Source of the DNA: a virus
Virus record (IMG/VR): IMGVR_UViG_3300045988_171811
DNA: 43,396 nt
Direction: 5' to 3' (one strand)
Under the pieces are notes generated by a model that was given only the letters and a program-made list of their open reading frames with translations, made no database searches and was not told where the DNA came from. Positions 23,285 through 39,437 of this stretch are shown here, piece after piece. A program made the translations under genes and the position numbers. Position 1 is the stretch's first letter, and every line of letters starts with the position of its first letter.

Positions 23285-23327
23285 AATTATTGTTCTCCTA
23301 TAAGTCGGTGGTAAAGAATTGCGGTGG

Positions 23328-23441: not shown

Positions 23442-23469
23442 AATTGTTTTCTCTCTTCCTGTGTTTTGG

Positions 23470-24210: not shown

Positions 24211-24225
24211 GATATGTTTCACCTC

Positions 24226-24975
24226 CTAACCGTTGACATTGTAGTTTTTGAATGCTTCTGTGTGGCGCTCATGTGAGCAGTACCAACATAGAGAAGACGA
24301 CTGAAGACTGTCAACCCTACCATCATGCGACCTTGCTCTCGCCCAAATGTTTTGGAGTCTTTCTATGGCTGCGAGCGCAACGTCCTGCCGCCACGGGAAA
24401 GAGAACTCACAAATACTGTCCGGCACCACCTCTACACTGCAGTCCCTAGGAAGGGCGACGATGGAACAGTGAGCCACCTCGTGTCCGAGCTGCGTGAGAC
24501 CGTACCCGTAGAGCATGATCTGAATGTAGTATTTACGAAATTGGCTTCCTGCCGCCGTATCAGCGAATCGTGGTAGATCATTGTCCCATTTAATGCTCTT
24601 CCGGAATGCGGAAATCTTTTTCCGTGAGAGCAGCTTCCAGTCTAGGACCGTCGCCGCCGCAATATCGAAACGATCCACGCTCCCAGAAATACGCCCATAG
24701 TCTTCAAGATCGTATACCTCTACTCTCTGCTCCACTAGAACGTTCGGTTCGTTTTTTGTGCGTGATTCCGCGAAAGCATGAAATGCGGTGCCGAGAAACG
24801 GTGCCAGTGGCGTGCCCGTATCCTCCGTGTCGTGCGGGATTCCGAGAAGCTTATCGGCAATGCATCGCTCGCAATCGTCCCCGATTTCACTTACGCCGAT
24901 GCGTGTTTGTTTGTCGCGTTCGGTTGGGGCGAAAACATTACTGACCGCTGTTGCGGCGGCCGGGCTCAAATTCAA
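24226..24975 (-). CDS. PD-(D/E)XK exonuclease, Cas4/RecB-like with a Cys cluster
   Basis: Has DDCERC near the N-terminus and CWYC near the C-terminus (a 4-Cys cluster), plus VDRFD....VLDWK (D...D-x-K). The ORF is open to ATG 25143, but that would overlap the upstream gene by 206 nt. TTG 24975 follows aggaagggga. Confidence 0.6.
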   Translation of the reverse strand: MNLSPAAATAVSNVFAPTERDKQTRIGVSEIGDDCERCIADKLLGIPHDTEDTGTPLAPFLGTAFHAFAESRTKNEPNVLVEQRVEVYDLEDYGRISGSVDRFDIAAATVLDWKLLSRKKISAFRKSIKWDNDLPRFADTAAGSQFRKYYIQIMLYGYGLTQLGHEVAHCSIVALPRDCSVEVVPDSICEFSFPWRQDVALAAIERLQNIWARARSHDGRVDSLQSSSLCWYCSHERHTEAFKNYNVNG

Positions 24976-25204
24976 ATTTCTCCCCTTCCTGAATTGCAGC
25001 GATAGCGGCGAGCCTGACGTCGCGGTGAACTTCAATGTCTCCGCTCGCAATATCTTCAATGAAGAATAGTCTCGCGTCGCCGGCCGGCATGATTTCGTAG
25101 ACCGTGCCGCCGAGCTCTTCTGCCCGCATTGCGGCTTGCTCAAGATTCGAATAGACCCGGTAGTCGCCTTTCTGCTGCGATTCCCATACTAGGTAGACGC
25201 CCAT
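24938..25204 (-). CDS. Hypothetical protein
   Basis: 88 aa with ordinary globular composition. RBS ggaagagagag upstream. Confidence 0.5.
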   Translation of the reverse strand: MGVYLVWESQQKGDYRVYSNLEQAAMRAEELGGTVYEIMPAGDARLFFIEDIASGDIEVHRDVRLAAIAAIQEGEKFEFEPGRRNSGQ

Positions 25205-25249
25205 TAGTATTTTTACTCTCTCTTCCCTGTAGTGTTGATTGGTGGTGTG

Positions 25250-25456
25250 TTATTCGACGATGGTTGCTGTGAGGCCGGCACGCTCCTCGATTGCTGTAGA
25301 AATGACGGCCGCATAGCACTGAATCCGCCAAATGTTCTCCGATCGAATGTTGGGTACGTGCAGTTGCATTGTCTTGACGCCGAATTTAGTGGGCCATTTC
25401 AGAATAATGGTGCGACCGGCGATCTCGTCAATCGTGGTGGCCTGTGTGATGCGCAT
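25250..25456 (-). CDS. Hypothetical protein
   Basis: 68-aa ORF with GGAGGA 12 nt upstream. Confidence 0.5.
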   Translation of the reverse strand: MRITQATTIDEIAGRTIILKWPTKFGVKTMQLHVPNIRSENIWRIQCYAAVISTAIEERAGLTATIVE

Positions 25457-25464
25457 AATATTTT

Positions 25465-25785
25465 CTATTCCTCCGTCGCAATGAGCTCGTAAATGTCGAG
25501 ATTGTTATTGATGGCCATGCCTCGCACAATGCTAACGTTATCCACGGTGACGTGAATGACATTGACGTCCGAGTGTCCGTCGCTCACTGGGGCGACGATC
25601 AGGAAATTCCTGTCGACCAGTTCGCTGTCGTCGGATACGAGAATGTTTCTGATAGTGCCTGTCATGCGGCGTCGCACTAGGTGAATGTTCGAGCCGCCGT
25701 GTGTTCCTGTCTTCATGGCATCTACTTTATGTGTGTGGCGGTGGTGTACGCAACCCACGTGAGCGTGGCGCCTATCACATCTCAT
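25465..25785 (-). CDS. Hypothetical protein
   Basis: ATGA overlap with the helicase stop at 25782-25785. Internal ATGs at 25716 or further downstream are possible alternative starts. Confidence 0.45.
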   Translation of the reverse strand: MRCDRRHAHVGCVHHRHTHKVDAMKTGTHGGSNIHLVRRRMTGTIRNILVSDDSELVDRNFLIVAPVSDGHSDVNVIHVTVDNVSIVRGMAINNNLDIYELIATEE

Positions 25786-27176
25786 ATGAGGCCGCTCTCA
25801 CGCAGACGCTCATACCCCGCAGCCAGCCTGGGCTCCACAGCCGTCACGTCAACAGTACCCTCACACTGCAAAAGAAAACGATTCACTCGTTTTGTCTGCC
25901 CCTTACGATTCAAACGAGCAGACGCCTGCAAATTCAAAATCACACTATTATCCTCACTCAACCAAATCTCAGTGTTGCAAACATTCTGCAGACCGTCGAT
26001 CCCTTCAGCGGCGGCCGCAACGACAGCACAGAGAATCCTCGGCCCATCGGGCCCCAAAAACTGTCGCCACTCATCCCTGTAGTCACTGGACAATTCAACA
26101 CTTCGGTAGCCGGCGTCAGCCAGTCGTTTCCGCAATGGCGTCATGAATTTACGCGAGTGACACCACAGAATAACTTTCTCGTCCGGGGGTAGATCGGACA
26201 GAATATCAAGAGTGGCGTCGATCTTCGAGGATTCTCTCTCCTCGAACTCCACACTGTCACCCACGATCCTCAGCGGTCCTAGAGTGATCTGCCTGAGTCT
26301 CCCGTCTAGAACGGCGGCGGACGAGGCTACACTGGCGCCACCATCCATAACCGCCAACCGATGATCCACAAACTCCCAATACATTCTCTTCTGTTCGCGC
26401 CTCATCCCGCAGACGACGCGTTGAACATTTACGGGGGGTAGATCACCGAAAACCTCATTCCCCCGCATCGCAGACCAATTGTCACCCACAGAATCACGGA
26501 GAGCACCTGGGCACCTTTCGCCACCATAAATCCTGGCATATGGGGACGCCGCAAACGGATTGAACCGAGAGACAAAAAACTCATCAGCAAACCGGTAGAA
26601 ACTACGATCGACACTATCCGGGTTCAGGAATTTGAGTACCCCGTAAATATTGACAGGTTTATTGCCGGCAGGCGTGCCCGACAAACCAAGACGATACTTT
26701 GATTTCAATGCTTTCACGGCCCGGAAAGACTGAGTACGGTGATTCGCGATACGGTGCACCTCATCCACGACCACCATGTCGAACGATTTCTTTGAGAAAG
26801 AAACGGACGGCCACTTCCCCACGTCCACCGCCTTTCCCAGGGAAACCAATAGCTCGAAATTAATGACCCACCAACCTTCCTCGCCGTTCAACATGTCCTC
26901 AATGTTGGCGCGCCCCGCCTTAGTGGTACGAGACAGTACTCTCGCTTCCCGGCCGGTGATGATTTTGACGCTGGCCTGCCATGACGGAATGACGCGCTTC
27001 GGACACACAACAATGACTCGCCTGGCCGCGTTAAGTTTCTGTGTGACCCAGATGGCGCCGTATGTTTTGCCGCATCCCGGTTCCCACGCCAGCAAGGCAC
27101 CACCGCCGTCTCGAATCGCGGTGACGGTACGGTTGATTTCTCTTTCCTGCGCCCCAGTAGGCTTAATGTCAATCAT
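25782..27176 (-). CDS. SNF2-family helicase / DNA-dependent ATPase
   Basis: Walker A EPGCGKTYG, DEXH box VVVDEVHRI, LSGTP motif and a C-terminal helicase domain. The ORF is open to TTG 27194, but ATG 27176 is preferred. Confidence 0.8.
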   Translation of the reverse strand: MIDIKPTGAQEREINRTVTAIRDGGGALLAWEPGCGKTYGAIWVTQKLNAARRVIVVCPKRVIPSWQASVKIITGREARVLSRTTKAGRANIEDMLNGEEGWWVINFELLVSLGKAVDVGKWPSVSFSKKSFDMVVVDEVHRIANHRTQSFRAVKALKSKYRLGLSGTPAGNKPVNIYGVLKFLNPDSVDRSFYRFADEFFVSRFNPFAASPYARIYGGERCPGALRDSVGDNWSAMRGNEVFGDLPPVNVQRVVCGMRREQKRMYWEFVDHRLAVMDGGASVASSAAVLDGRLRQITLGPLRIVGDSVEFEERESSKIDATLDILSDLPPDEKVILWCHSRKFMTPLRKRLADAGYRSVELSSDYRDEWRQFLGPDGPRILCAVVAAAAEGIDGLQNVCNTEIWLSEDNSVILNLQASARLNRKGQTKRVNRFLLQCEGTVDVTAVEPRLAAGYERLRESGLI

Positions 27177-27260
27177 TGAAATTCGTCCAAACAATCACTA
27201 GCAGACAAACGGTGAGCGTGAACACCAGTAGGGTCACTTGTTTTTCCTCTTTTCTATACA

Positions 27261-27298
27261 ACGAACCCCACCCCATTGCTCGGTGGGGCGGGGTTCGT
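27261..27298 (-). terminator. Stem-loop between a small early gene and the SNF2 helicase
   Basis: 15-nt arms acgaaccccacccca / tggggcggggttcgt with one mismatch and an 8-nt loop. Confidence 0.45.
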
Positions 27299-27307
27299 CG
27301 TGTGTGG

Positions 27308-27520
27308 TCAGTGGGTGATGGCGTGACGCTTCACGGCGTCCCAGTAGGCGTCTTCGTCAACGTCCACCACATAGTAGGGGGTGCCGGTGGCGGAGAAGTA
27401 TTGTCCGATCACGTCATCGGCGATGGCGGCAACGTCATAGTCGTCCGCATTGTCGAGCGTGGGGATGATGCCGAACTCGACGACGTCGTTCCGGGTGCTG
27501 CGGCGAGTGGTGATGTCCAT
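27308..27520 (-). CDS. Small acidic hypothetical protein
   Basis: The start is set at ATG 27520 (RBS agagga-N4). Asp/Tyr-rich (DDYDVAAIADDVIGQYF). Confidence 0.5.
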   Translation of the reverse strand: MDITTRRSTRNDVVEFGIIPTLDNADDYDVAAIADDVIGQYFSATGTPYYVVDVDEDAYWDAVKRHAITH

Positions 27521-27619
27521 GATTTCCTCTTCTCTCTGTACTGTCACCGTCTCTCGGTGACGGCTCTAGTATAGGCAGACCGTGCACGCCCTCGTCACCC
27601 CACAGAAGCATGATCTGGC

Positions 27620-28519
27620 TCACATCTCCAGTTGGAGGAGAGACAGCGCCCTACCCACGGCCGCACTCACATCGCCACCGCACTCCAGCAACCGCATGCA
27701 ATCGAACCCCGTGTGCGCCCGGCCGTCTGCGAGCGGATCATCCGCATGATGCGAGTAGACCAGACCGCTGTCCAGCATCGTCACACCCGGGGCCGTGTCA
27801 CCGCCACGCGTATACCGCCAACGCCGACCCACCGACTCATACGGCCAACCAAACAAACTGACAAGATCATTAAACCCGTACTTTGAATTGAATTCCCCAA
27901 TCACCCCACCATAGCCGCCATCGGGCACAGAAGACAAAGAAACATCATCATTCCTCTCCTCATACCCGATATTCTCCAACCATTTATCAACATTCAAACG
28001 GGCACCGTCAACGAGCCAATGACGCACCCTCAACCCAAGACGATGCGACGGCAGGAAGAAAGCTCGGGACGCCTCAGCACACGACCCGTCCCACTGGGCC
28101 ACGGGCCCCAACACACTAAAACACGTCCGGCCGATCGCCTCACACTCCCCCGCGGTCATGCTGCGAGTGCACGGCAGGACAACACGGAAACGCGGGGACG
28201 GGAAAGATGACGACGCCGTCTCCCACACAATCCCGGCAAGATTCGCCACCTGCATACGATCCCCGACAAAATCTTCCCGCGACCCGTGGTCCGCGTCCAA
28301 AACAATAGCCGACCGGGACACAAAATTTCTCTTCTGCCGCCTCCCCCCCGAAAGAATGCCAGCAAAAAACGCTGGAGCATCATATTTCTCGCATTTCGAG
28401 GGCGCCTCACACAAGGATGCAAAATCGTTAAGATTAACGCTAGTGGCACGCCACCCCGTGATGGAGCGAACACTGCCCGCTACCATCACAGGGAAACGCA
28501 CCCCGAAAACATCACTCAC
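27620..28519 (-). CDS. Primase-polymerase-like protein (AEP / VirE-N-like)
   Basis: 299 aa. Has AIVLDADH (DxD metal motif), RFRVVLP and RAFFLPS. Sits immediately downstream of the DUF3987-type helicase, with an 8-nt overlap and a GTG start. Confidence 0.5.
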   Translation of the reverse strand: MSDVFGVRFPVMVAGSVRSITGWRATSVNLNDFASLCEAPSKCEKYDAPAFFAGILSGGRRQKRNFVSRSAIVLDADHGSREDFVGDRMQVANLAGIVWETASSSFPSPRFRVVLPCTRSMTAGECEAIGRTCFSVLGPVAQWDGSCAEASRAFFLPSHRLGLRVRHWLVDGARLNVDKWLENIGYEERNDDVSLSSVPDGGYGGVIGEFNSKYGFNDLVSLFGWPYESVGRRWRYTRGGDTAPGVTMLDSGLVYSHHADDPLADGRAHTGFDCMRLLECGGDVSAAVGRALSLLQLEM

Positions 28520-30083
28520 TGTACGACGGTTCCGCTATCTGATCCCGCAGAATCGCCTCCACGAGATCATTATCCACAATCGCACCTTCCGTCCTAAACT
28601 TCACGCCCCGACGAAGAATATACTGCCGATACTCCTCCACGCTCCGCGGAGACAGATTCTTCGCTTCCAGCACCTGATAAAGGCGCGTCTCAGTCGGCGG
28701 ATTACTACTGAAATCATCCACCATACGCGTCAAATCCGGAACGAAAACATAGTCGATCATTTTCAACGCGTCAGGAAGCCAGAAATCAGCGGCCAGGCTG
28801 AAAGCTTTCCTCACCGCGGACGATGACACGCTCATCTGCTGCTCGAAAAGAGACAGAATAGCGGCAACACGCATAATATGATTCCCCATACGGTCAATGA
28901 CCGCCTGCACTGCACGCTGGAAAGGCGACTCGCGGGCCGCCTCCCTACCCCAAGCTCGCATTGTCTCCACCCAAACATTCCGGGCAGACTCGGTCACGGT
29001 CATAACCATTGGCGTATTGACAGGCCAAAACTCAGTGGCACAAGTGACAGTACCACGGAATTCATGTTGCATCATACCCAACATTGTTGAAATGCGCTCG
29101 GAAGCACGCTCAACAAAACCATCACTACCATGCGCGTTCCGGTCGTTATCAGTGACCCACACGAAAGACGACGGGTCAGACCGGCGATCCTCCTCGTCCA
29201 ACGCGAAAAGAATGCGCGGACCCCACCCTGTCTCGAACAAAGACTGAGACATGTTATCGACTACGTCGCCGAGAATACCGGTACCGCAGAAAGCAAGAAA
29301 ATGAGGAACCCTCTCGCTATCCGCACGCCTCACACCGTCGTCACCGACACGCACGGACTCAACAGTTTTACCCGAGTAGACGTCGGTCAAGAATCCGATG
29401 AGCCCGCTACGATAACCCTCACCCTGTGACGCAGAATACATGTTCTGCAGTTCGTCTACAAACATAATAGACGCCCCGCCAGGCCGCTGCGCCATCCGAA
29501 GATTCAAACCTTCAGCCGTCACATTCGACCCGAACAAAACATTCGCCATAAGAGACCGCTCGCACGGACTATTACCGATACTGTTCAGCAAATCTTTACG
29601 ATCGGCCTCGAACTCGACGATACGATTATTGATATCGTCCCGCTCCGTCCGGTACTCGTCAATATCAATACGCCCACTTCTCTTTTCCAGGGATTCCAGG
29701 CGACGATGCAGCATGTGGAGTGCTGAATCCACCTCCTGCACAGCCGCCAAAGGCGTTGACGAATCCCACCTGAACGCGCCCACACAGTCGTCGAAAAAAC
29801 TACGCACCAAAGACTGAGCCGTCGTCTTCCTCGACAAAGTAGAAGCACCCAGACAGTGCGAGTACAAGGTCAACGGCACCACATTCTGCGCGTTCGCAGA
29901 CAGGTGAGTCCTCGCAGACAACGGGGCAGACACCATCGTCAAGAAAGTCGTCCACAAAAACCGGGGAGGCGTCTCCGGCGACCTGGACTGCAAATAGTCA
30001 ATGATCCTGTCAGCGAACCAATCATAATGCACGCCCCCATCCGGGGACGCGAACCCGTAATCCGTAATCCTCTCAACACTCAA
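28512..30083 (-). CDS. DNA helicase, DUF3987 / D5-like P-loop NTPase
   Basis: 523 aa. P-loop-like GASTLSRKTT and Walker B IMFVDELQN. Paired with the PrimPol-like gene. Confidence 0.55.
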   Translation of the reverse strand: MSVERITDYGFASPDGGVHYDWFADRIIDYLQSRSPETPPRFLWTTFLTMVSAPLSARTHLSANAQNVVPLTLYSHCLGASTLSRKTTAQSLVRSFFDDCVGAFRWDSSTPLAAVQEVDSALHMLHRRLESLEKRSGRIDIDEYRTERDDINNRIVEFEADRKDLLNSIGNSPCERSLMANVLFGSNVTAEGLNLRMAQRPGGASIMFVDELQNMYSASQGEGYRSGLIGFLTDVYSGKTVESVRVGDDGVRRADSERVPHFLAFCGTGILGDVVDNMSQSLFETGWGPRILFALDEEDRRSDPSSFVWVTDNDRNAHGSDGFVERASERISTMLGMMQHEFRGTVTCATEFWPVNTPMVMTVTESARNVWVETMRAWGREAARESPFQRAVQAVIDRMGNHIMRVAAILSLFEQQMSVSSSAVRKAFSLAADFWLPDALKMIDYVFVPDLTRMVDDFSSNPPTETRLYQVLEAKNLSPRSVEEYRQYILRRGVKFRTEGAIVDNDLVEAILRDQIAEPSYSE

Positions 30084-30394
30084 TTGTTCTCCTCCTCCAC
30101 ATGAGCGAGAAAACTATTGAAAGCTTCAAGAATCTCATCGCCGTCGAACGTGTAGCCGACATCAAACATAGGGCCCCAGTAATGGTTCGTCTGCTCGAAA
30201 ATCGCCGCCTTGTAACCGCGAACAGTATCCGCTTCGAAAATAAACCGGTGCCCCAGCGATGCGACGACAATGTGGATGCTGTTATTCCAGGCGCTTACTT
30301 CCAGGCCGAACGAATCATTCCCACCCTTGCTGGCGTAATTCTTGCACGCCTCAGTAACATGCTTCAGGAACTCCCAGTCGAATACCTTAATCAT
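30080..30394 (-). CDS. Hypothetical protein
   Basis: The start is set at ATG 30394, which forms an ATGA overlap with the upstream stop. The longer ORF has a Gly/Arg/Asn low-complexity N-terminus. Confidence 0.5.
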   Translation of the reverse strand: MIKVFDWEFLKHVTEACKNYASKGGNDSFGLEVSAWNNSIHIVVASLGHRFIFEADTVRGYKAAIFEQTNHYWGPMFDVGYTFDGDEILEAFNSFLAHVEEENN

Positions 30395-30699
30395 TTGTCC
30401 TCCCACAGTTTTGTCTCGATTTCGCCGAGCAGCTCCTGAAGCTCCCACGCCCCGTCCCCCTTCACTGTTGTTATTGTTTCGTCCATGTCGACGTCTCGAA
30501 CACTCACCGAATACTCGACCCCCAGAATATTGAGAGTGCACCCGTACCGTTTCCCGGTGACGTCCAAGTAGAGGACGGGCAGATCACTGTCCACTATGGC
30601 ATCCTCACCCGTATCCAATAGGATGGACTCGCAGCACGGGTCATTGAGCATTTCTGCCACGAATTGGGTCACGACAGGGCGCAACTCGCCGTCAATCAT
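30391..30699 (-). CDS. Hypothetical acidic protein
   Basis: 102 aa, overlap-coupled to both neighbours. Confidence 0.5.
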   Translation of the reverse strand: MIDGELRPVVTQFVAEMLNDPCCESILLDTGEDAIVDSDLPVLYLDVTGKRYGCTLNILGVEYSVSVRDVDMDETITTVKGDGAWELQELLGEIETKLWEDK

Positions 30700-32865: not shown

Positions 32866-33048
32866 CTACCGCACTCCCAGCGTCCCCCATAGGACCCAGA
32901 TAGCCGCCGCGACGCCGAGCGTCCCGACAATGGCGAAACACGACGCCGTAAGGTAGACGATGGTGGCGAGGATGATTTCGCTGCTGCGCTTCAAAGGGCG
33001 GCGGGGGGCGGCGTTGGTGCGCTTCGGTGCCGCATGCCTCATGGTCAT
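32866..33048 (-). CDS. Small membrane protein
   Basis: The start is set at ATG 33048 (RBS agaggaaa-N4). Has a basic N-terminus and then a TM segment (IILATIVYLTASCFAIVGTLGVAAAIWVLW). Confidence 0.5.
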   Translation of the reverse strand: MTMRHAAPKRTNAAPRRPLKRSSEIILATIVYLTASCFAIVGTLGVAAAIWVLWGTLGVR

Positions 33049-33254
33049 GATGTTTCCTCTTTCCATGTGATTGTCTTGGCTGTGTTGCGGGCTGCTGTCT
33101 TGCTCCCGACGCCATTAACTCTAGGCGCCCGACGCTCGCCCTGTCCACCCCACCTGGGTGGGACATACGTCACAATTCCGAGGTGTTGGTCCACGACGTC
33201 GTCAGCCCACCACCCCCGGAACACCGTGAAGGGCGGACGGACGGGGGGGGGCAT
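33045..33254 (-). CDS. Possible small protein (69 aa)
   Basis: ATG 33254 is preceded by ggaggg-N9. The stop overlaps the next gene's start (ATGA). Pro/Trp/Arg-rich, so the coding status is uncertain. Confidence 0.3.
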   Translation of the reverse strand: MPPPVRPPFTVFRGWWADDVVDQHLGIVTYVPPRWGGQGERRAPRVNGVGSKTAARNTAKTITWKEETS

Positions 33255-33357
33255 GCGGTTGTGCCCTCCATCCCGTGCGATCACGAAACGGAGGACACGA
33301 TGCCCGCCCTACAGAGATGGGGGGTGATATGTCATTGTTGACCTCTATCACACCGTC

Positions 33358-33795
33358 TCATATGACGTCAATACCACTCTCCTCCAGCACACCCCCAATC
33401 TCTTCAACATTATCCACATTCACGCCGGCAACACTGATACCGCAGTCGATATCGCCGTCACTGTGCTCAATGACCTCAAGCTCAAGCGTGACACGGTCCA
33501 AGCCAAAGACGATTTGCCTACCCAATAGTGCGACGGGGCGCACGTCCACGTATCCGGTAGTACGGAGAATGTCGAGGGCGCGGAACATCAGGTTAGCGCC
33601 GCGCCCGACATTGGCGAGCAGTGTCGTCAAATATTCGGGCGTCTCTCTTTTGTCGGCGACGCTTACCATGTAGTTTGTGCCGTCCATGTGCTCGATCATA
33701 ATTGCGAGCCGGGCCGGCATGTCGTCTGACGGGTCCGTGGCCCGGCGCAGGTCCATGTGTCGGACGAGCATCCCCTCGTCTAGCGTGTTGCCCAT
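33358..33795 (-). CDS. Hypothetical protein, first gene of the leftward early operon
   Basis: The start is set at ATG 33795 (RBS gaagagaggg upstream). GTG 33804 is an alternative start. Confidence 0.5.
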   Translation of the reverse strand: MGNTLDEGMLVRHMDLRRATDPSDDMPARLAIMIEHMDGTNYMVSVADKRETPEYLTTLLANVGRGANLMFRALDILRTTGYVDVRPVALLGRQIVFGLDRVTLELEVIEHSDGDIDCGISVAGVNVDNVEEIGGVLEESGIDVI

Positions 33796-33844
33796 TATGT
33801 CCACCCTCTCTTCGTGTGCCGGCCTTCGTCGGCGTGGTGTGTCT

Positions 33845-33874
33845 ACTATAGAAGGGCGGCGGGGGTGCCATCAA
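33845..33874 (-). promoter_or_regulatory. Candidate leftward early promoter
   Basis: On the minus strand: TTGATG (33874-33869), an 18-nt spacer, then TATAGT (33850-45). The -10 is about 50 nt upstream of the first leftward gene. Confidence 0.4.
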
Positions 33875-33961
33875 CACCCAACGTGTGTGACTTGTGTCTC
33901 AGTAGACTCTGGGAGCTCCCGTGGACTTGCACTACTGCCCCATCCGTGTCACCGCAGGGGC

Positions 33962-34204
33962 ATGGATACCTCAACTACTCCGCGCATCTCACCCGCCCTC
34001 GAGCCAGAGACCATGATGACTCTCATGCTCCGCTACGTCGAAGACCACGAGGAGGTCGCATACCAGTACGCCCGTACGCTGGTGGGTGCTTTCGCCGCCG
34101 ACCCGTACATCCCGGACGCCCTCCAGTTGACACACGACCTCATCACCGAGTCCGTGGATGACATTCGGAACTTCGAGGGGGAGGGGGGAGGCGAGCCGAA
34201 TTAA
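33962..34204 (+). CDS. Small acidic hypothetical protein (rightward early)
   Basis: ATG 33962 lies within the longer track ORF. ATG 34013 (MMTLMLRYVEDHEE...) is an alternative start. Both have weak RBSs. Confidence 0.4.
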   Translation: MDTSTTPRISPALEPETMMTLMLRYVEDHEEVAYQYARTLVGAFAADPYIPDALQLTHDLITESVDDIRNFEGEGGGEPN

Positions 34205-34386
34205 CGTTGCTCTGCGGCGGCTGACCAACCGCGTCGAGGCTGAGCTGGGCGACTGAGCCACCCACCCCAACCCCTCCTGCACACAATGTGACAGAGAACA
34301 CTCCCCCAAGGTCTTGGCTAGCACAAGGCCCTGGGGGCATTCTTACACCAACAGAACAGCCCAACCGGCCAGGGAGAAAAGAGAAA

Positions 34387-34731
34387 ATGAACCCCGCCAT
34401 CTATCGCACTGAGGACCCGACCCTCGAGACCGTCGAGTTCGGCACCATCTACCGGATCCGCGCTCCTCGCACCGGCGAACCCTGGAGCCTGTACAGGGTT
34501 TTCGACGACTGCGGTGTCGGCACCATTGAGCCGCTGGACGTCCCCGACGGATGGGACGACGCCTACGAGTACCCGATGGGCGACACTGATATGTGGGCTC
34601 GTCTTACTCGTCTCGCTATGGACGCTCATCTCGCTCACGCGATACTTGAGGTCGCCATCGTCCCCGTCGACGACGATGAGGCGGATGCTGGCTCGCGCGC
34701 TCTGCTGTACCGCTTCACCTGGCCCTACTGA
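34387..34731 (+). CDS. Hypothetical protein (rightward early)
   Basis: The start is set at ATG 34387 after gggagaaaagagaaa. 114 aa, acidic. Confidence 0.55.
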   Translation: MNPAIYRTEDPTLETVEFGTIYRIRAPRTGEPWSLYRVFDDCGVGTIEPLDVPDGWDDAYEYPMGDTDMWARLTRLAMDAHLAHAILEVAIVPVDDDEADAGSRALLYRFTWPY

Positions 34732-34751
34732 CCCGACCGCCCGAGAACGAC

Positions 34752-34785
34752 GAGGCCCCACCCTCCATGACGATGGTGGGGCCTC
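34752..34785 (+). terminator. Terminator hairpin after the rightward early genes
   Basis: 11-nt arms gaggccccacc / ggtggggcctc with a 12-nt loop. Confidence 0.5.
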
Positions 34786-34860
34786 AGTGCGTCTGCTGTA
34801 GAAGGGCGGTGTGCGATGGGGTGTGTGGTGCCGGCCGCCATGACTCTGACGTCTCACAGT

Positions 34861-34904
34861 TTCCGTTAACTTCCCGTTTACTTTGTTCACCTTCCGTTTA
34901 CTTT
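34861..34904. repeat. Iteron-like direct repeats TTCC(C)GTTTACTTT
   Basis: CCGTTTACTTT occurs at 34874-34884 and 34894-34904, exactly 20 bp apart. A variant, CCGTTAACTT, occurs at 34863-34872. Confidence 0.6.
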
Positions 34905-35141
34905 CTACGCATGTGGGTTGTTTGCTAGCAACTTGCTTTCTAGAACAAAAACACCCGTTTGTGTTACTACAATATTGGTGCGTGTCGTCACACTTTCTGC
35001 CCCTGTAGCAAGGTTTTGTGTCAGTGTGTTTCGCATGATTGCAACGAATAGTCTCTGTCACGGTTGTTTTGTTGGCAGTGTTTGTTGCGGTGACTTTGGT
35101 CCCGTATGCTACACTCGAGTAGACGAATCGTCGAAGACGAT

Positions 35142-35201
35142 CGCGGCGTAGCCGCTGAGGAGCCCTAGCGACGCAAGCGAGCGTTACGCCGCGGGTGTTT
35201 T
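35142..35201 (+). terminator. Long hairpin followed by a U-tract (terminator or small structured RNA 3' end)
   Basis: cgcggcgta (35142-35150) pairs with tacgccgcg (35185-35193) around a GC-rich interior, followed by ggtgtttt. Confidence 0.4.
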
Positions 35202-35257
35202 CGAAGAGCTCGCCACTGTGTTGGGCCCAACCTATACTCTTAAAAGAGTACTAGAAT

Positions 35258-35310
35258 TAGACACTGTCTAACACGCCTAGACAGTGTCTATTTTTGTTAG
35301 ACAGTGTCTA
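35258..35310. promoter_or_regulatory. Three 13-bp palindromes TAGACA-N-TGTCTA phased at exactly 20 bp (operator-like array)
   Basis: Copies at 35258-35270, 35278-35290 and 35298-35310. Flanked by further short inverted repeats (tactctt-aa-aagagta at 35235-35250; tgttca-N4-tgaaca nearby). Confidence 0.7.
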
Positions 35311-35469
35311 ATTAGGTAACATGTGTTATAACATAATTAGTGTTCAATGGTGAACATGACGATTGTTAACAGTGAACAGTGCGATGGGGGCAACACACAC
35401 TATTGCGGTGGCATACAACACACACACTATTAGATAAACAAACCCGCAATACACGAGGCGTGTGCTGTG

Positions 35470-35504
35470 TTACGTGCGTGCTCGCAAAGCTGCGCGCGCA
35501 CTAC
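35470..35504 (+). repeat. 35-bp repeat copy 1 (hairpin GTGCGTGC...GCGCGCAC) followed by a purine-rich tract
   Basis: ttacgtgcgtgctcgcaaagctgcgcgcgcactac differs from the copy at 36130-36164 only at two loop positions (aa versus gg). Confidence 0.7.
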
Positions 35505-35675
35505 ACAGCACCCGCCATTCCAAAACAAAGAAAAACGAGGAGAAAAGAAAGAGAAAAGGAAAAAAGAACAGAGAGGGTAGTGTTAGACGGTGGAGGCGCT
35601 CGTCTCGCTGACGCTGCGACGCGCCACCACCTAACACAAACAAAGAGAAAGAAAAGCGAAGAGAGGAGAACAACG

Positions 35676-36020
35676 GTGAGCAGAACAAGCACCAAAGAAC
35701 ATAAACAATTCAGAAAACAAGTACTCGCCAGAGCACAAGCAATGGGCATCACACACTGCCCAGCATGCGGAACCAAACTCCAATACCACAATAACGGGCA
35801 ACGCAAACCCAACTCAGCCGAGGCAGACCACATAATCCCAGCCTCACTAGGCGGAACCAACCACCCAGACAACGGCAGAGTGCTGTGCGCCAAATGCAAC
35901 AGCAGACGCGGCAACGGCAGAGGAGGAAAAGGAAAAGCACGCCACTACCAGAAAAACGAGGGGGAACGAGACAGGCTACCTATCGCAGTCATGCCCACCG
36001 AACACTCGGACACATGGTGA
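35676..36020 (+). CDS. HNH endonuclease (terminase-associated type)
   Basis: GTG start after gagaggagaa-N5. Motifs: CPACG...EADHIIPASLGGTNHPDNGRVLCAKCNSRRGN. The part of the track ORF upstream of it is low-complexity. Confidence 0.8.
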   Translation: MSRTSTKEHKQFRKQVLARAQAMGITHCPACGTKLQYHNNGQRKPNSAEADHIIPASLGGTNHPDNGRVLCAKCNSRRGNGRGGKGKARHYQKNEGERDRLPIAVMPTEHSDTW

Positions 36021-36129
36021 ATCACACACCACCGCCATTCCAACACACAGAAAGGCTGGGCAAAAAGAGAAGAGAAAAGAGGAGAAGAGAAGACAAAGAG
36101 ACACAATGGTGTTCGGGGATTACGTGCGT

Positions 36130-36164
36130 GCTCGCAGGGCTGCGCGCGCACTACCCCGAACACC
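36130..36164 (+). repeat. 35-bp repeat copy 2 followed by a (GAGGAA)n purine-rich tract
   Basis: ttacgtgcgtgctcgcagggctgcgcgcgcactac lies 660 bp downstream of copy 1 and is followed by aaagaggaagaggaagaggaagaggagaag. Confidence 0.7.
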
Positions 36165-36969
36165 GAACAACAAAGAGGAAGAGGAAGAGGAAGAGGAGAA
36201 GACGGAGAACAGCGAACTAAAACAACACACCACGCCCCCTCCCCACCATTCCAGCACACGCATAAACCATCACCGCCATTCCACAATGACACAACCATGC
36301 CACAAAAACACTACCCTAAACCAACAATACTGTGACAGCAAACACAAAGGGCGGAAGAGAAGAGCAGAACAGGACACAGTTCCACACGCCACATACCACC
36401 GCACTTCCCCACCCACAACAAACACGACAATACACAAGACAGAAGAAGAGCGGGAACAACACAAGGGAAGCAGGACAACGCGAAGACAGGGAACACCATG
36501 AAGATGACGGGGACAACGCAAGACAGGGGACACCGCACACGCCAACACACCCCGCCCCTCAACACGGCCACCACACAAACGTAAGGGGGACGCCGATACA
36601 AAACGAGGGGACGTCATCACACAGACGAGAGGGTCATCATCGCAGCACCCGCCCTTCATTCACCATGCCACCCCACCACACAATGGCACCCCACCATCCA
36701 CTACGCCCCCACCCACCACCACCGTGAAGGGGGGAGCACACAGAGGATACCCCACCACACAAACACTGCAGACACGCACCACCCACACACCACACACCCG
36801 GCAGGCAACAGTGCACGACACGACAGCAGTACTCACACAGTACGCACGAGGAGTAGATGGCATGGGCCGCACGCACTTGGTCGGGCACACCACCGCCATT
36901 CCACAGCAGCACACACCGACGAGGATGGACACCATCCACTCTCCCACCTCACACTGTTCACGTTCACAC

Positions 36970-37310
36970 AACCAACGAACAACAATGATCAACGAACATG
37001 ATGATGAACAATCATCGTTCAATGATCAATCAATCAACAATGAATGATGAACATCATGATGATCAATGATGATCAACAATAAACATGATCAACATGATGA
37101 TGAACATCACGATGATGATGTGATGCATGACATGCATACCAATACCATGCACCATGCATGGTGCCAACGCATGCCACAAGGCAACATGCAATGCACAAAC
37201 GCACAAACACACAAAAAAGCATAAAAACAAAAGAAATGTTACAAAAAATGCAAAAATATTCAAGGCACGAATCGAACAATGGCGTTCAAAAAAACCATGG
37301 CAACAAAACG
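36970..37310. repeat. AT-rich degenerate repeat tract (ATGATCAA / ATGATGAACA / ATGCAT) with phased A-tracts
   Basis: Five ATGATCAA copies place GATC at 36987, 37024, 37061, 37071 and 37087. A5-7 tracts begin at 37213, 37223, 37243, 37252 and 37288. Confidence 0.7.
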
Positions 37311-37319
37311 AGACGAACA

Positions 37320-37353
37320 TAAGGGATCCCTTAAAAGAGTAAGGGATCCCTTA
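37320..37353. promoter_or_regulatory. Two 14-bp perfect palindromes TAAGGGATCCCTTA, 20 bp apart
   Basis: Copies at 37320-37333 and 37340-37353. Each is part of a 16-bp direct repeat, taagggatcccttaaa. Confidence 0.75.
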
Positions 37354-37491
37354 AAGTGGGACCCACACCACAAAACAAGACAGGGAACACACACAAACGA
37401 GACACACACCACACAAATTATGTGATGGGGGCCACCCCCCCTCCCCCATCTGGCCGCGAACACCCCGAAGGTCTGCCCATCTCTCCCTGCT

Positions 37492-37620
37492 TGTGGAAAA
37501 CCCTGTGGATAACTCCAGTAATCCATGTCACAATGTGACTGCCGTCATGTGGAAAACTCCCAAACCTGTGGAAAACCCTGTGGAAAACTCAGACAGCCTG
37601 TGGATAACCCTGTGGAAAAC
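37492..37620 (+). promoter_or_regulatory. Cluster of seven co-oriented TGTGGAWAAC boxes (complement of DnaA-box consensus TTWTCCACA; alternatively terS/cosB-type sites)
   Basis: Boxes start at 37492, 37504, 37548, 37567, 37579, 37599 and 37611. Two are TGTGGATAA (perfect TTATCCACA) and five are TGTGGAAAA. Three pairs have 12-bp spacing. The extended consensus is CCTGTGGAAAACYC. Confidence 0.7.
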
Positions 37621-37626
37621 CCCGCA

Positions 37627-37663
37627 GGAACATGACTGACATTACAGCATATAATAGAGGGTA
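37627..37663 (+). promoter_or_regulatory. Candidate late/packaging promoter with a perfect -10 TATAAT and a leaderless terS start
   Basis: TATAAT is at 37650-37655. The terS ATG begins at 37663, 7 nt after the -10, and has no usable SD (the only SD-like element, gaggg, lies just 1 nt upstream). The weak -35 is ggaaca with a 17-nt spacer. Confidence 0.4.
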
Positions 37664-37944
37664 TGACAACCCACACAAACACCACAATCACCGTATACGA
37701 ACCCAACAGCCCCGCACCCATCACAGACGCCACAAACACCGGCAACCCCACCCTCATCCGCCAAGCACTCGCACACAAAATCGCCACCGTCATAGACGAC
37801 CCCAGGACAGGCGACACAGCACTCACAAAACTCACCGCACAACTCATACAAATCACAGACCAACTCGCCACCACACAAAACGAAAACACACAAACACACA
37901 CCACCGACATTCCAAACGAAACACAAACCTGGGACGGCATCTGA
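37663..37944 (+). CDS. terS: Small terminase subunit (candidate)
   Basis: 93 aa. The stop overlaps the terL ATG (ATCTGATG). The segment LIRQALAHKIATVIDDPRTGDTALTKLTAQLIQITDQLA resembles the C-terminal helices of actinophage small terminases. Sits directly upstream of terL. Confidence 0.5.
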   Translation: MTTHTNTTITVYEPNSPAPITDATNTGNPTLIRQALAHKIATVIDDPRTGDTALTKLTAQLIQITDQLATTQNENTQTHTTDIPNETQTWDGI

Positions 37945-39437
37945 TGAGCGAAAAACACCTATCCGAAATCGCCGCCCACCTCACCCTCCCAGAAAACATC
38001 ACACACACAGCCTGGCCACCAGTCCAACGCCGCCTCCAAGAAATGCAATACCCCCTCGACGTATGGCAGCAAGACTGGCTAAAAGCAATCCTCGCAAAAA
38101 GAAAAGACGGCCACTACGCCGCCAGCATCGACGGAATTCAAGCATCCATCCCTCGTCAGGTCGGCAAAACATACACAATCGGCGGCCTCACATTCGCACT
38201 CGCCACCCTCCACCCAAACTACTTCGTCCTCTGGACCGCACACCGCACACGCACCGCGGACGAAACATTCAACGACATGAAAGGCATGGCACAAATCCCC
38301 AACATCGCCCCATACGTAAACAAAATACGGCAAGCAAACGGACAACAAGCCATCCTCTTCAACAACGGATCACGCATTCTCTTCGGAGCCCGCGAAGGCG
38401 GATTCGGGCGAGGATTCCACGGCGTAGACATGATACTTTTCGACGAAGCCCAGATCCTAGGCGCCGCCGCACTAGACGACATGATCCCCGCCACAAACAC
38501 GGCGCCCGACCCACTCATCATCAAAATCGGGACACCACCAAAACCAAAAGACCCATCCGAAGCATTCAGCGAATTCCGCAACCTCGCCCTGCAAGGCGAA
38601 ATAAAAGACGGCCTCTACCTCGAACTGGCCGCCGACTATGACGCCAACAGCGACGACAGGAAACAATGGGAAAAAGCAAACCCATCATACCCGCGCCGCA
38701 CACCCGAATCCGCCATTCTAAGAATGCGCCGGCAGCTCGGAGAAGAATCATTTCGACGTGAAGGCCTCGGAATATGGGACCGCGCCAACGACAGACTCGC
38801 AATCGACCCAATCGCTTGGAACGCCGCCGCAATACGGCCAGAAAACACTCCGTCTGGTATGCGGTGGTGCGCCGCGATCAGGTTCGCACCCGACGGATCA
38901 ACGTGCGCCCTAGCCCGAGCTGGACATAAGCAAAACACGCCCACACACGTCGAACTCTGCACACACCAAGGCGTCCGCCGCATGAGTGAGGGCACACAAT
39001 GGATCATCGACTACATTGCAGACACAAAAGACAGATGGGCGCAAATCATCGTAGACGGAAAATACGGTGCCGGAGACACAATCGAAAGACTCCGTGCCAT
39101 CGGAGTACGCCCGCAAGTCATTATCACGCCCACGATCACGCAAATCGTAGACGCTTACAGCATGCTAGACGCCTCACTACGCGAAAAAACAATCACGCAC
39201 CTGGACGACATGCAACTGAGAACCGAAGCCGCGTCCGCAACATCACGCCCAATCGGAACATCAGGAGGATGGGCGCTACAGGCCCCGCCCGGCGCCACAG
39301 TAGCCGGCCTAGAGGCATGCACGCTCGCAATGTGGGCCGCACGCACAACAAAAAGAAGGCCTCGTTACAAGCCTTATGATAAAATCGAGAACGCCAATAG
39401 TAATACTGGACGTGGCGGCGGAGTATTGTTCCTATGA
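37944..39437 (+). CDS. terL: Terminase large subunit
   Basis: The start is set at ATG 37944 (MSEKHLSEIAAHL). Walker A IPRQVGKT and Walker B MILFDEAQ, with a C-terminal nuclease region. The track ORF's 104-aa His/Arg/Thr N-terminal extension is rejected. Confidence 0.85.
   Translation: MSEKHLSEIAAHLTLPENITHTAWPPVQRRLQEMQYPLDVWQQDWLKAILAKRKDGHYAASIDGIQASIPRQVGKTYTIGGLTFALATLHPNYFVLWTAHRTRTADETFNDMKGMAQIPNIAPYVNKIRQANGQQAILFNNGSRILFGAREGGFGRGFHGVDMILFDEAQILGAAALDDMIPATNTAPDPLIIKIGTPPKPKDPSEAFSEFRNLALQGEIKDGLYLELAADYDANSDDRKQWEKANPSYPRRTPESAILRMRRQLGEESFRREGLGIWDRANDRLAIDPIAWNAAAIRPENTPSGMRWCAAIRFAPDGSTCALARAGHKQNTPTHVELCTHQGVRRMSEGTQWIIDYIADTKDRWAQIIVDGKYGAGDTIERLRAIGVRPQVIITPTITQIVDAYSMLDASLREKTITHLDDMQLRTEAASATSRPIGTSGGWALQAPPGATVAGLEACTLAMWAARTTKRRPRYKPYDKIENANSNTGRGGGVLFL

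What the first reader, a model, noticed from the sequence alone, without database searches (positions are those of the whole stretch)
34732..37662. About 2.9-kb gene-poor, strand-skewed control region containing only an HNH gene
Between the rightward early terminator and terS, the only convincing CDS is the HNH endonuclease (35676-36020). The + strand of 35380-37320 is strikingly depleted of T and low in G; my count for 36201-36260 is A21 C26 G9 T4. The segment left of the palindrome cluster is T-rich on the + strand instead; my count for 34861-34920 is T27 C16 G10 A7. In other words, sequence is T-poor in both directions away from about 35.1-35.4 kb. T depletion removes stop codons, which explains the many long low-complexity ORFs in the track. 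A C-rich, G-poor, unstructured transcript is the textbook substrate for Rho. The region could therefore be a giant Rho-dependent conditional terminator between early and late transcription, a pair of divergent non-coding RNAs, or an origin or packaging region with strand-specific constraints. I know of no described function for such a tract.
Basis: partly seen in the sequence, partly recalled or inferred. Interest (0 to 1): 0.7.

Follow-up and report, generated by a model that had tools for sequence, protein, structure and literature searches.

The report
Thymine-purged genome ends around phage cos
The T-poor "gene desert" is real: it is the junction of the two physical ends (cos site) of an actinobacterial phage genome. 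The lack of T on one strand is kept by natural selection and also reaches into the silent codon positions of the neighbouring DNA-packaging genes, a constraint for which I found no published explanation.

Summary
Apart from HNH (35676-36020), 34750-37662 is non-coding. About 50-70 related contigs show no 3-base periodicity of substitutions there. They show 375 distinct indels, only 22% of them multiples of 3.

The interval holds the genome termini. Contig ends pile up at 37462 and 37474, which implies an 11-nt 3' overhang, CCCCGAAGGTC. This cos is homologous to the ends of isolated relatives. The 1.45-kb T-poor tract is therefore the right-terminal non-coding region. It is absent from the nearest outgroups, where HNH abuts cos.

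The T-poverty is not confined to intergenic DNA. Third codon positions have 1-6% T in HNH, terS and terL, against 24-36% in the capsid gene. The effect fades over about 5 kb. Rare-variant spectra are strand-symmetric and predict about 20-26% T, so selection maintains the bias, not mutation.

Conserved hairpins with invariant G·U pairs and a motif found only on the + strand point to a sense-strand, probably RNA-level, constraint. My best guess is an almost structure-free, C-rich, factor-dependent (Rho/RNase) transcript zone. That mechanism is unproven.

The parts
34752..34785 (+). GC-rich hairpin after the last rightward small ORF (34387-34731). It is terminator-like but has no T run.
   Evidence: Inverted repeat I12. 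Fold -31 kcal/mol, z -4.6.
34861..34905 (.). Three TTCC(C)GTTTACTTT repeats in the modestly T-rich segment. Possible protein-binding sites.
   Evidence: Read from the sequence. 82-94% conserved.
35082..35110 (+). Candidate promoter P1: TTGTTG, 17 nt, TATGCT.
   Evidence: Read from the sequence. The -10 is kept as TATGNT in 34 relatives.
35124..35212 (+). Conserved hairpin of about 90 nt. Candidate small RNA or attenuator.
   Evidence: 93-100% identity in 49 relatives. Compensatory pairs and several invariant G·U pairs, valid only on the + strand. z -3.1.
35210..35238 (+). Candidate promoter P2: TCGCCA, 17 nt, TATACT.
   Evidence: The only + strand sigma-70-like hit in 33000-38200. Nearly invariant in 34 relatives.
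35258..35310 (.). Three 13-bp palindromes, TAGACA(C/G)TGTCTA, spaced 20 bp apart. Operator-like, just downstream of P2.
   Evidence: These are the only 3 matches in the window.
35385..35675 (+). T-poor (12%), purine-rich untranslated leader of HNH. It is rich in SD-like GAGG motifs.
   Evidence: Composition. No codon periodicity. GAGG 21 per kb against 4.2 per kb genome-wide.
35459..35516 (+). Twin hairpin, copy 1. The core ACGTGCGTGCTCGC-N4-GCTGCGCGCGCAC is invariant.
   Evidence: z -5.3. The outer stem covaries (GC/UA/CG) and one U·G pair is invariant in 68 sequences.
35580..35636 (+). Hairpin directly upstream of the HNH ribosome-binding site, 98-100% conserved.
   Evidence: z -3.4. A positionally equivalent weak hit lies upstream of HNH in the Actinomyces bowdenii prophage.
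35676..36020 (+). HNH endonuclease gene (packaging-associated). Third codon positions are T 3%, G 11%.
   Evidence: Pfam HNH 5e-10. PHROG HNH families. Periodicity. Third-position composition.
36021..36960 (+). Fast-evolving, indel-rich A+C tract (T 5-9%). Core of the right-terminal non-coding region.
   Evidence: Predicted RNA folding -0.12 kcal/nt.
36108..36164 (+). Twin hairpin, copy 2.
   Evidence: z -6.1. Alignment and covariation with copy 1. R1 model 86 bits.
35512..36903 (+). Five copies of CCRCCATTCCA, at 35512, 36032, 36243, 36273 and 36893, all on the + strand.
   Evidence: 5 exact matches confined to this span. In relatives there are 1-4 copies at conserved relative positions. Over all loci, 162 copies are on the + strand and 1 on the - strand.
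36960..37320 (.). Conserved AT-rich block (GC 38-41%) with ATGATSAAC repeats and a CATGCA cluster. Candidate packaging-termination (cosQ-like) or origin element.
   Evidence: Repeat families D2, D3 and D5. 84-98% identity.
37320..37353 (.). Two copies of the palindrome TAAGGGATCCCTTA.
   Evidence: Inverted repeat I11. z -4.1.
37463..37473 (+). cosN: inferred 11-nt 3' cohesive end, CCCCGAAGGTC. The right end of the genome is at 37473 (37462 after trimming) and the left end at 37474.
   Evidence: At least 9 independent contigs start at 37474. One has an Illumina adapter fused directly to it. Two contigs end at 37462. Homology to the record ends of phages MrSmee, Spartoi and B22.
37493..37620 (+). 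Seven GTGGAWAAC repeats between cosN and terS. Candidate terS-binding (cosB-like) sites.
   Evidence: 7 of the 8 matches in the window lie here; 0.7 expected by chance. Relatives have 5-9 copies.
37650..37655 (+). Invariant TATAAT, 7 nt before the terS ATG. Candidate promoter for a leaderless terS transcript.
   Evidence: Invariant in 69-71 of 71 sequences. The spacer is 7 nt in 55 of 56 distinct contexts while its sequence varies.
37663..37944 (+). terS. Third codon positions are T 1%, G 3%.
   Evidence: PHROG small terminase 3e-5. Periodicity. Composition.
37944..39437 (+). terL. Third-position T is 0-2% over roughly the first 750 nt (one 50-codon window at 6%), then 8-12%.
   Evidence: Third-position T is 3.4-8.5% in 72 relatives.

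Best explanation
What it is (shown). The interval is the circularised junction of the two ends of a linear, cos-type siphophage genome. The nearest outgroup terminases are in Actinomyces and Schaalia prophages. From left to right it holds:
1. two tandem rightward promoter candidates and three operator palindromes;
2. a T-poor untranslated leader with conserved hairpins;
3. the HNH packaging endonuclease gene;
4. a 1.45-kb untranslated right-terminal tract;
5. cosN (11-nt 3' overhang, 37463-37473);
6. seven terS-site-like repeats;
7. an invariant TATAAT placed to give a leaderless terS mRNA.

The T-poverty belongs to the sense strand of the whole packaging module. It runs from about 35385 to 38700 and fades by about 42400. 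It applies equally to non-coding DNA and to synonymous sites. Selection maintains it, not mutation bias.

How it most likely works (inferred). The constraint acts on the transcript.
- Restricting the RNA to alphabets that cannot self-pair (A+C, or A+G near HNH) yields an RNA that is almost structure-free and free of terminators.
- Over most of its length that RNA is also C-rich and G-poor, punctuated only by a few conserved hairpins.
- Where ribosomes do not cover it, such an RNA is the preferred substrate of Rho. In Actinobacteria it is also the preferred substrate of RNase E.
- Its fate would therefore depend on factors rather than on built-in terminators.
- I propose that this insulates the P2-HNH unit from the late operon and keeps HNH and terminase expression low or conditional.
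For: Termini: contig-end pile-up with adapter fusion. cos homology to the ends of isolated phages.

Non-coding status.

Selection rather than mutation:
- Singleton rates are strand-symmetric (C>T 0.120 against G>A 0.126 per site).
- They predict an equilibrium T of 0.20-0.26 against 0.05-0.08 observed.
- The ratio of T gains to T losses falls from 3.9 among singletons to 1.8 among common variants (p 0.02).
- terL third-position T stays at 3.4-8.5% in 72 genomes despite 18% divergence at third positions.

Same composition in the tract and at third positions of HNH, terS and terL, opposite to the capsid gene (A3 2-6%, T3 24-36%).

Sense-strand and RNA evidence:
- Invariant G·U pairs and compensatory changes in three conserved hairpins.
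- CCRCCATTCCA occurs 162 times on the + strand and once on the - strand.
- The domain starts about 140 nt downstream of the conserved promoter P2.

Low structure: + strand RNA folds at -0.12 to -0.25 kcal/nt in the domain, against -0.3 to -0.42 elsewhere and for the - strand RNA. C/G is 1.5-2.65.

Family-wide signature: relatives at 60% TerL identity have a T-free leader directly before HNH. L119 has 0.7% T over 267 nt and L120 has 2.1%. Third-position T in HNH is 1-8% in L119, L120, L121 and MrSmee. The L119 leader folds half as strongly as the adjacent T-containing leader of equal GC.

Mycobacterial RNase E prefers single-stranded C-rich RNA (PMC10641625).
Against: - No transcript data exist. 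The promoters, transcript ends and Rho dependence are all inferred.
- Rho and RNase E need C-rich unstructured RNA but do not require the absence of U. The 'non-pairing alphabet' argument is mine, not an established rule.
- The segments around HNH are purine-rich (C/G about 0.9) and not rut-like.
- The T-free leaders of the high-GC relatives contain G runs and C runs, so they are not structure-free in absolute terms.
- If termination were the aim, an ordinary intrinsic terminator would be simpler.
- The domain is roughly centred on cos, which a DNA-level explanation predicts equally well.
- terS appears to have its own promoter, so the two T-poor halves may be separate transcripts.
Confidence: 0.35

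Rival explanations
1. DNA-level constraint tied to cos and packaging. Keeping T off one strand for about 2 kb on either side of cosN would prevent ectopic staggered double nicking by the low-specificity HNH-terminase complex. Both inferred nicks fall 5' of TG: C^TGCC on the top strand and G^TGTT on the bottom strand. More generally, it would keep the cos flanks free of -10 hexamers, palindromes and TpA steps on both strands.
For: - The domain spans about -2.1 kb to +1.2 kb (strong) around the mapped cos and fades with distance.
- It covers both coding and non-coding DNA.
- T returns exactly where DNA-binding repeats lie: 36960-37320 has 17% T and 37474-37662 has 22%.
- In relatives the T-poor zone is always the HNH and right-end region next to cos.
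Against: - There is no motif-specific avoidance. TA, TG and TT observed/expected ratios are unremarkable or even raised.
- The left boundary coincides with a promoter rather than with a fixed distance from cos.
- In L119, T is normal in the 200 bp between HNH and terS that contain cos.
- The hairpins carry G·U pairs that make sense only as + strand RNA.
- No base-specific effect of a T-free strand on terminases is known (my knowledge).
Confidence: 0.22
2. Defence evasion. A strand made of A+C or A+G cannot contain any palindromic restriction site that includes an A·T pair. It also biases all asymmetric sites to one orientation. The right end is the first DNA to enter the cell, so it would be protected before any anti-restriction function is made. 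A related version: a U-free RNA escapes a U-dependent host RNase or abortive-infection nuclease.
For: - The tract lies at the last-packaged end, which is presumably the first injected (plus general knowledge of cos siphophages).
- The constraint is compositional, not sequence-specific, and evolves fast.
- Selection against new T alleles.
Against: - terS and terL, at the opposite (last-entering) end, are at least as T-poor.
- The rest of the genome is unprotected.
- Several conserved palindromes, including GGATCC, sit inside the zone.
- No host genome or restriction-system information was available.
Confidence: 0.1
3. Replication origin. Transcription from P2 through purine-rich, T-poor DNA forms a persistent R-loop that primes replication. 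Alternatively, the AT-rich iteron-like block at 36960-37320 is the origin and the skew reflects strand-specific requirements of initiation.
For: - Purine-rich sense tracts lie downstream of a promoter.
- G-run clusters occur in the T-free leaders of relatives.
- A conserved AT-rich repeat block is present.
- No initiator protein was recognised, but a helicase, primase, Sak4 and an exonuclease are encoded.
Against: - Most of the domain (36220-38700) is C-rich and G-poor, which disfavours R-loops.
- The domain extends through two coding genes.
- Nothing identifies an origin.
Confidence: 0.08
4. Mutational strand asymmetry, as in mitochondrial heavy and light strands. One strand would spend time single-stranded during replication, transcription or end resection, and would deaminate.
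For: The - strand is G+T-rich, which is the classic signature of a deaminated single strand. A gradient runs away from about 36-38 kb.
Against: - Singleton substitution rates are strand-symmetric and predict about 20-26% T.
- New T alleles are in excess at low frequency and are lost at higher frequency.
- The polarity is continuous across the ends rather than mirror-symmetric, which excludes end resection.
- The sign is opposite to transcription-associated deamination of the coding strand.
- Caveat: some singletons may be assembly or sequencing errors.
Confidence: 0.04
5. The long low-complexity ORFs (for example 36106-36501, 36332-36727 and 36724-37047) are translated genes.
For: The ORFs tile the + strand and are longer than the T content alone predicts.
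Against: - No 3-periodicity of substitutions.
- 375 indel events, only 22% of them multiples of 3.
- No Pfam hits.
- Length varies from 1730 to 2170 nt among relatives.
Confidence: 0.02

Closest known systems
HNH-assisted cos packaging modules (HK97 gp74-type; actinophages such as Arthrobacter MrSmee, Rothia Spartoi, Propionibacterium B22)
   Same: The gene order HNH - cos - terS - terL - portal is the same. The cos sequence is homologous: a G-run/C-run element about 40 bp left of the cut, and ATCTCTCCC just inside the left end. The inferred end has a 3' overhang.
   Different: In those phages HNH ends 50-200 bp from the terminus. Here 1.45 kb of T-purged non-coding DNA is inserted between HNH and cos. 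The purge also covers synonymous sites of terS and terL.
Lambda late-operon arrangement (pR' - leader - cos - Nu1/A) and Rho-dependent terminators with rut sites
   Same: Rightward transcription is directed at cos from a regulated promoter. There is a long untranslated RNA that is C-rich, G-poor and unstructured.
   Different: No Q, N, nut or qut equivalent was identified. The size is over 1 kb rather than about 100 nt. U depletion is not a feature of known rut sites. terS seems to have its own leaderless promoter. Rho dependence was not tested.
Strand compositional asymmetry of animal mitochondrial DNA (A+C-rich sense strand)
   Same: An A+C-rich sense strand lies opposite a G+T-rich complement. 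Third codon positions and non-coding DNA share the bias, and there is a gradient.
   Different: In mitochondria the bias is driven by mutation (deamination of the displaced strand). Here rare-variant spectra are symmetric and selection removes new T alleles.
Strand-biased site distribution as anti-restriction (T7 and EcoP15I), and the restriction-site-poor first-step-transfer DNA of T5
   Same: A one-strand compositional rule removes or orients recognition sites. The affected DNA includes the end that enters the cell first.
   Different: The purge here is general, not site-specific. It also covers the last-entering end. No link to any restriction system has been shown.

Membership tests
cos site of an HNH-dependent (HK97-like) terminase system | An HNH endonuclease gene lies adjacent to terS, terL and portal. 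| tested here: met
   Pfam and PHROG hits, and the gene order.
cos site of an HNH-dependent (HK97-like) terminase system | Fixed physical genome ends at one sequence. | tested here: met
   At least 9 independent contigs start at 37474, one fused to a sequencing adapter. Two contigs end at 37462. The position matches the ends of MrSmee, Spartoi and B22.
cos site of an HNH-dependent (HK97-like) terminase system | Complementary single-stranded overhangs, with known polarity and length. | tested here: inconclusive
   An 11-nt gap between the end pile-ups fits a 3' overhang trimmed during library preparation. This is inferred from assemblies, not measured.
cos site of an HNH-dependent (HK97-like) terminase system | Cleavage at this site requires HNH and terminase. 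| not testable with these tools
   Needs biochemistry.
Rho-dependent terminator / rut region | A stretch of at least 80 nt that is untranslated, unstructured, C-rich and G-poor. | tested here: met
   36220-36960 has C 40% and G 21%, folds at -0.12 to -0.25 kcal/nt, and is non-coding. The feature is not met in the purine-rich segments 35520-36215.
Rho-dependent terminator / rut region | Transcript 3' ends that depend on Rho. | not testable with these tools
   No transcriptome or host is available.
Intrinsic terminator | A GC-rich hairpin followed by a U run on the sense strand. | tested here: not met
   No + strand hit inside the T-poor domain. The only + strand hit is the operator palindrome at 35258-35290.
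Protein-coding gene (low-complexity ORFs) | Codon periodicity of substitutions and indels that preserve the reading frame. | tested here: not met
Known RNA families (Rfam 15) | A match at the family's gathering score. | tested here: not met
   No hits at gathering threshold. Only chance-level hits at E up to 1.
Mutation-driven replication or transcription skew | A strand-asymmetric substitution spectrum that predicts the observed composition. | tested here: not met
   Symmetric singleton rates predict an equilibrium T of about 0.2-0.26.

The most novel reading that the evidence does not exclude
Purging thymine from the sense strand is a distinct, selected design of the whole packaging module: the leader, HNH, the terminal tract, terS and terL. 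It would make these transcripts or this DNA either invisible to, or specifically dependent on, a host factor that needs U or T. Candidates are a U-dependent pause or termination system, an abortive-infection RNase, or off-target nicking by HNH-terminase. To my knowledge no constraint of this class has been described for phage genomes. It would be ancestral, in short form, in Actinomyces- and Arthrobacter-type cos phages.
Probability: 0.3. Interest if true: 0.8.

Novelty: new variant of a known kind. Interest (0 to 1): 0.62.

Why it matters
Non-coding DNA at phage genome ends is usually annotated as empty or as "probably origin/cos". Here a compositional rule is under measurable selection in more than 70 genomes. 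It overrides codon usage in two essential enzymes and recurs as a 0.7%-T leader in related Actinomyces phages. That implies a strand-specific function around cos that current models of packaging, late transcription and defence evasion do not predict.

If the constraint acts on RNA, it offers a natural example of regulation by nucleotide alphabet, a structure-free RNA. It would also be a handle on Rho and RNase control in Actinobacteria. If it acts on DNA, it bears on terminase and HNH specificity.

This phage is abundant in human-associated metagenomes. The cos mapping, the promoters and the candidate small RNA are directly useful for annotating it.

Tried and rejected
- Megablast of the region against GenBank phages gave no match.
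- Rfam (gathering and E-value modes) and tRNA scans gave nothing meaningful.
- A GTDB genome scan with TerL found only 41%-identity Leucobacter prophages and no host.
- An exact scan for the hairpin core in IMG/VR returned a single locus, so it was uninformative.
- A metagenome scan for the 14-mer CCACCGCCATTCCA returned only scattered single chance hits. A test of the idea that it is a host Chi-like site was not possible.
- A Chi or end-protection model was rejected because the polarity is continuous across the ends, not mirror-symmetric.
- RNase E evasion was rejected. Mycobacterial RNase E prefers C-rich single-stranded RNA (PMC10641625).
- Avoidance of specific dinucleotides or motifs (TA, TG, stop codons) was rejected, because only a general loss of T is seen.
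- The covariance model of the twin hairpin found only weak hits in outgroups.
- Pfam, PHROG, NCBIfam and PDB searches of the small ORFs upstream (33275-34731) found no regulator. There is only a faint SigI-like hint for 30080-30541.
- Four literature searches found no description of a T-purged phage tract.


Full report
**1. Observation.**
- AT skew on the + strand is 0.45-0.81 from 35400 to 37400.
- In 500-nt windows T falls to 6.2-7.2%. The rest of the window has mean 21.8%, sd 3.9 and minimum 11.4%.
- The segment to the left (34790-35100) is T-rich (36% T, 16% A), but only modestly so.

**2. Context.** The window is a complete, circularly permuted phage genome of about 43.4 kb.
- Structural genes run rightward from terS (37663) through the window end into 1-13830.
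- Replication genes (Sak4-like annealase, exonuclease, helicase, primase) lie on the - strand at 21540-30541.
- HNH (35676-36020), terS, terL (true start about 37944) and portal are recognised by Pfam and PHROGs.
- There is no nucleotide match in GenBank phages.
- TerL is about 50% identical to Arthrobacter MrSmee, Rothia Spartoi and Propionibacterium B22.
- TerL is 59-63% identical to prophage terminases of Actinomyces bowdenii, Actinomyces sp. 432 and Schaalia hyovaginalis. An Actinomycetaceae host is therefore likely.
- IMG/VR holds about 60 close relatives (TerL 93-98%) from several human-associated samples.

**3. The physical ends lie inside the finding.**
- Among the related contigs, at least 9 begin exactly at the homologue of window 37474 (TGCCCATC...).
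- One of them carries an Illumina adapter fused directly to that base.
- Two contigs end at 37462 and others end within a few bases.
- An 11-nt gap between 'ends' and 'starts' is what end-repair leaves of a 3' overhang. The inferred cohesive end is CCCCGAAGGTC (37463-37473).
- The junction aligns with the deposited ends of MrSmee, Spartoi and B22. They share GAACACCCC before the cut, ATCTCTCCC just after it, and a G-run/C-run element about 40 bp upstream.
- Between cosN and terS lie seven GTGGAWAAC repeats (0.7 expected by chance; relatives have 5-9 copies).
- An invariant TATAAT sits exactly 7 nt before the terS ATG, and the spacer varies in sequence. This is the arrangement of actinobacterial leaderless genes (my knowledge).

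**4. Non-coding status.**
- Across about 50-70 relatives, substitutions fall 65-99% in one codon phase in HNH, terS, terL, portal and primase.
- They are evenly spread over the three phases in 34750-35675 and 36021-37662.
- A MAFFT alignment of 27 distinct sequences shows 375 distinct indel events in the tract, 22% of them multiples of three. HNH has none.
- The long ORFs are by-products of T loss.

**5. Anatomy of the non-coding DNA**.
- Candidate promoter P1 (TTGTTG, 17 nt, TATGNT) precedes a hairpin of about 90 nt. The hairpin is 93-100% conserved and has compensatory pairs and several invariant G·U pairs.
- Promoter P2 (TCGCCA, 17 nt, TATACT) is nearly invariant. Three TAGACASTGTCTA palindromes follow it.
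- From about 35385 T disappears.
- Two copies of a hairpin of about 57 nt flank HNH. They share an invariant core, their outer stems covary (GC/UA/CG), and one U·G pair is invariant.
- A third invariant hairpin abuts the HNH ribosome-binding site.
- CCRCCATTCCA occurs five times, only on the + strand. Over all loci the count is 162 on the + strand and 1 on the - strand.
- 36160-36960 evolves fast (60-85% identity).
- 36960-37473 contains conserved AT-rich repeat blocks and palindromes.
- G·U pairs become A·C mismatches on the other strand. The structures therefore argue for rightward transcription.

**6. The bias is not an intergenic peculiarity.** Third codon positions (A/C/G/T):
- HNH: 0.42/0.44/0.11/0.03.
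- terS: 0.37/0.59/0.03/0.01.
- terL: 0.34/0.46/0.13/0.06.
- The fast-evolving tract has the same profile (consensus base composition A/C/G/T 0.37/0.41/0.17/0.05).
- The capsid gene has A3 0.02-0.06 and T3 0.24-0.36, and the primase is similar.
- T3 is 0-2% for terS and mostly 0-2% (one 50-codon window at 6%) for roughly the first 750 nt of terL. It then rises: 8-12% in the rest of terL, 6-22% in portal, 4-12% in the VG15 gene, 12-18% in scaffold.
- The polarity is the same on both sides of cos.

**7. Selection, not mutation.**
- I used variants present in a single sequence as a proxy for recent mutation. Per-site rates are strand-symmetric (C>T 0.120, G>A 0.126).
- The implied equilibrium is 20-26% T against 5-8% observed.
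- T-gaining alleles outnumber T-losing alleles 3.9:1 among singletons, 3.3:1 at 2-8% frequency and 1.8:1 at 8-25% (Fisher p 0.02).
- C>T variants are rarer at high frequency than G>A variants (p 0.004).
- terL third-position T stays at 3.4-8.5% in 72 genomes despite 18% mean divergence at third positions.
- Caveat: some singletons may be assembly or sequencing errors, and recombination blurs polarisation.

**8. Comparative breadth.**
- MrSmee, Spartoi, B22 and the 60%-identity relatives L119-L122 have HNH 50-200 bp from cos or terS. None has a long tract or an extreme skew over kilobases.
- They do carry a shorter version. L119 has 2 T in the 267 nt directly before HNH (0.7%). L120 has 2.1% over 141 nt.
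- Third-position T in HNH is 1-8% in L119, L120, L121 and MrSmee, while their terL is normal.
- The T-free leader of L119 folds at -0.33 kcal/nt. The adjacent T-containing leader of equal GC folds at -0.61.
- The window's group therefore expanded an older feature linked to HNH.

**9. Mechanism.**
- The two sub-alphabets used are A+G around HNH (with 5-fold enriched GAGG motifs) and A+C elsewhere. Both are unable to self-pair.
- Predicted + strand RNA structure is -0.12 to -0.25 kcal/nt, against -0.3 to -0.42 elsewhere and for the - strand RNA. C/G is 1.5-2.65.
- I therefore favour an RNA-level constraint (confidence about 0.35). It would yield a structure-free, terminator-free, largely C-rich transcript zone whose fate depends on Rho and RNase E. 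Mycobacterial RNase E prefers single-stranded C-rich RNA (PMC10641625).
- Such a zone would insulate the HNH unit from the late operon and keep packaging-enzyme expression low or conditional.
- Shown: the ends, the non-coding status, selection, strand specificity and low predicted structure.
- Inferred: the transcripts, the promoters and any factor dependence.
- The main rival is a DNA-level, cos-centred constraint (about 0.22).
- Mutational skew, end-resection or Chi models, and coding are disfavoured or rejected for the reasons given under rival explanations and tried-and-rejected.

**10. Verdict.** The finding is real and extends beyond the given interval. Part of it is ordinary: a cos region with regulatory DNA. 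Part of it is unexplained: a selected, module-wide purge of sense-strand thymine that overrides codon usage.

Noticed in passing
window 35082-35212: A candidate small RNA or attenuator. A TATGNT -10 element is followed by a hairpin of about 90 nt that is 93-100% conserved, more than most protein-coding sequence here. It has compensatory changes and invariant G·U pairs. No Rfam family matches.
   Followed up: partly
window 37650-37665: An invariant TATAAT lies exactly 7 nt upstream of the terS ATG in 55 of 56 distinct contexts, and the spacer sequence varies. This suggests that the late (structural) operon starts with a leaderless mRNA 190 nt inside the left genome end.
   Followed up: partly
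window 14625-15143 (-) and 15595-16623 (-): The phage encodes a dCTP deaminase-like protein (Pfam DCD 7e-32) and a DUF3310 protein. This hints at manipulation of the dUTP/dTTP pool or at base modification. A link to the T bias was considered but not established.
   Followed up: no
window 35258-35310: Three perfectly spaced (20 bp) 13-bp palindromes, TAGACA(C/G)TGTCTA, lie just downstream of the P2 -10 element. Relatives appear to differ in this segment by an indel, suggesting 2 versus 3 copies (identity 0.49 at 35280-35299; copies not counted directly). They look like repressor operators, but no repressor or integrase gene was recognised.
   Followed up: no
window 36960-37190: A conserved AT-rich block with ATGATSAAC iteron-like repeats and a cluster of CATGCA motifs lies 300-500 bp left of cos. 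It could be an origin or a packaging-termination element.
   Followed up: no
L046:1-21 and L070 (last 36 nt): Public IMG/VR contigs retain sequencing adapters. In L046 an Illumina adapter is fused to the true left genome end. L070 ends in a Nextera adapter.
   Followed up: yes
L119:6340-6606; L120:9151-9291: Related Actinomyces-type phages (about 70% GC) have an almost T-free leader with repeated CACNACCAGGGGG-like units directly upstream of their HNH gene. The 262 nt upstream of this in L119 (6078-6339) is very strongly structured.
   Followed up: partly
window 30080-30541 (-): A 153-aa ORF has a faint similarity to sigma factor SigI (NCBIfam E 0.03, far below the cut-off). A phage sigma factor would change how the promoters here should be read.
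   Followed up: no
window 37632-37943: The mechanical ORF list extends terL 104 codons upstream as a His/Arg/Thr-rich artefact of the T-free sequence. The conserved terL starts near 37944 (MSEKHL...), overlapping the terS stop.
   Followed up: partly
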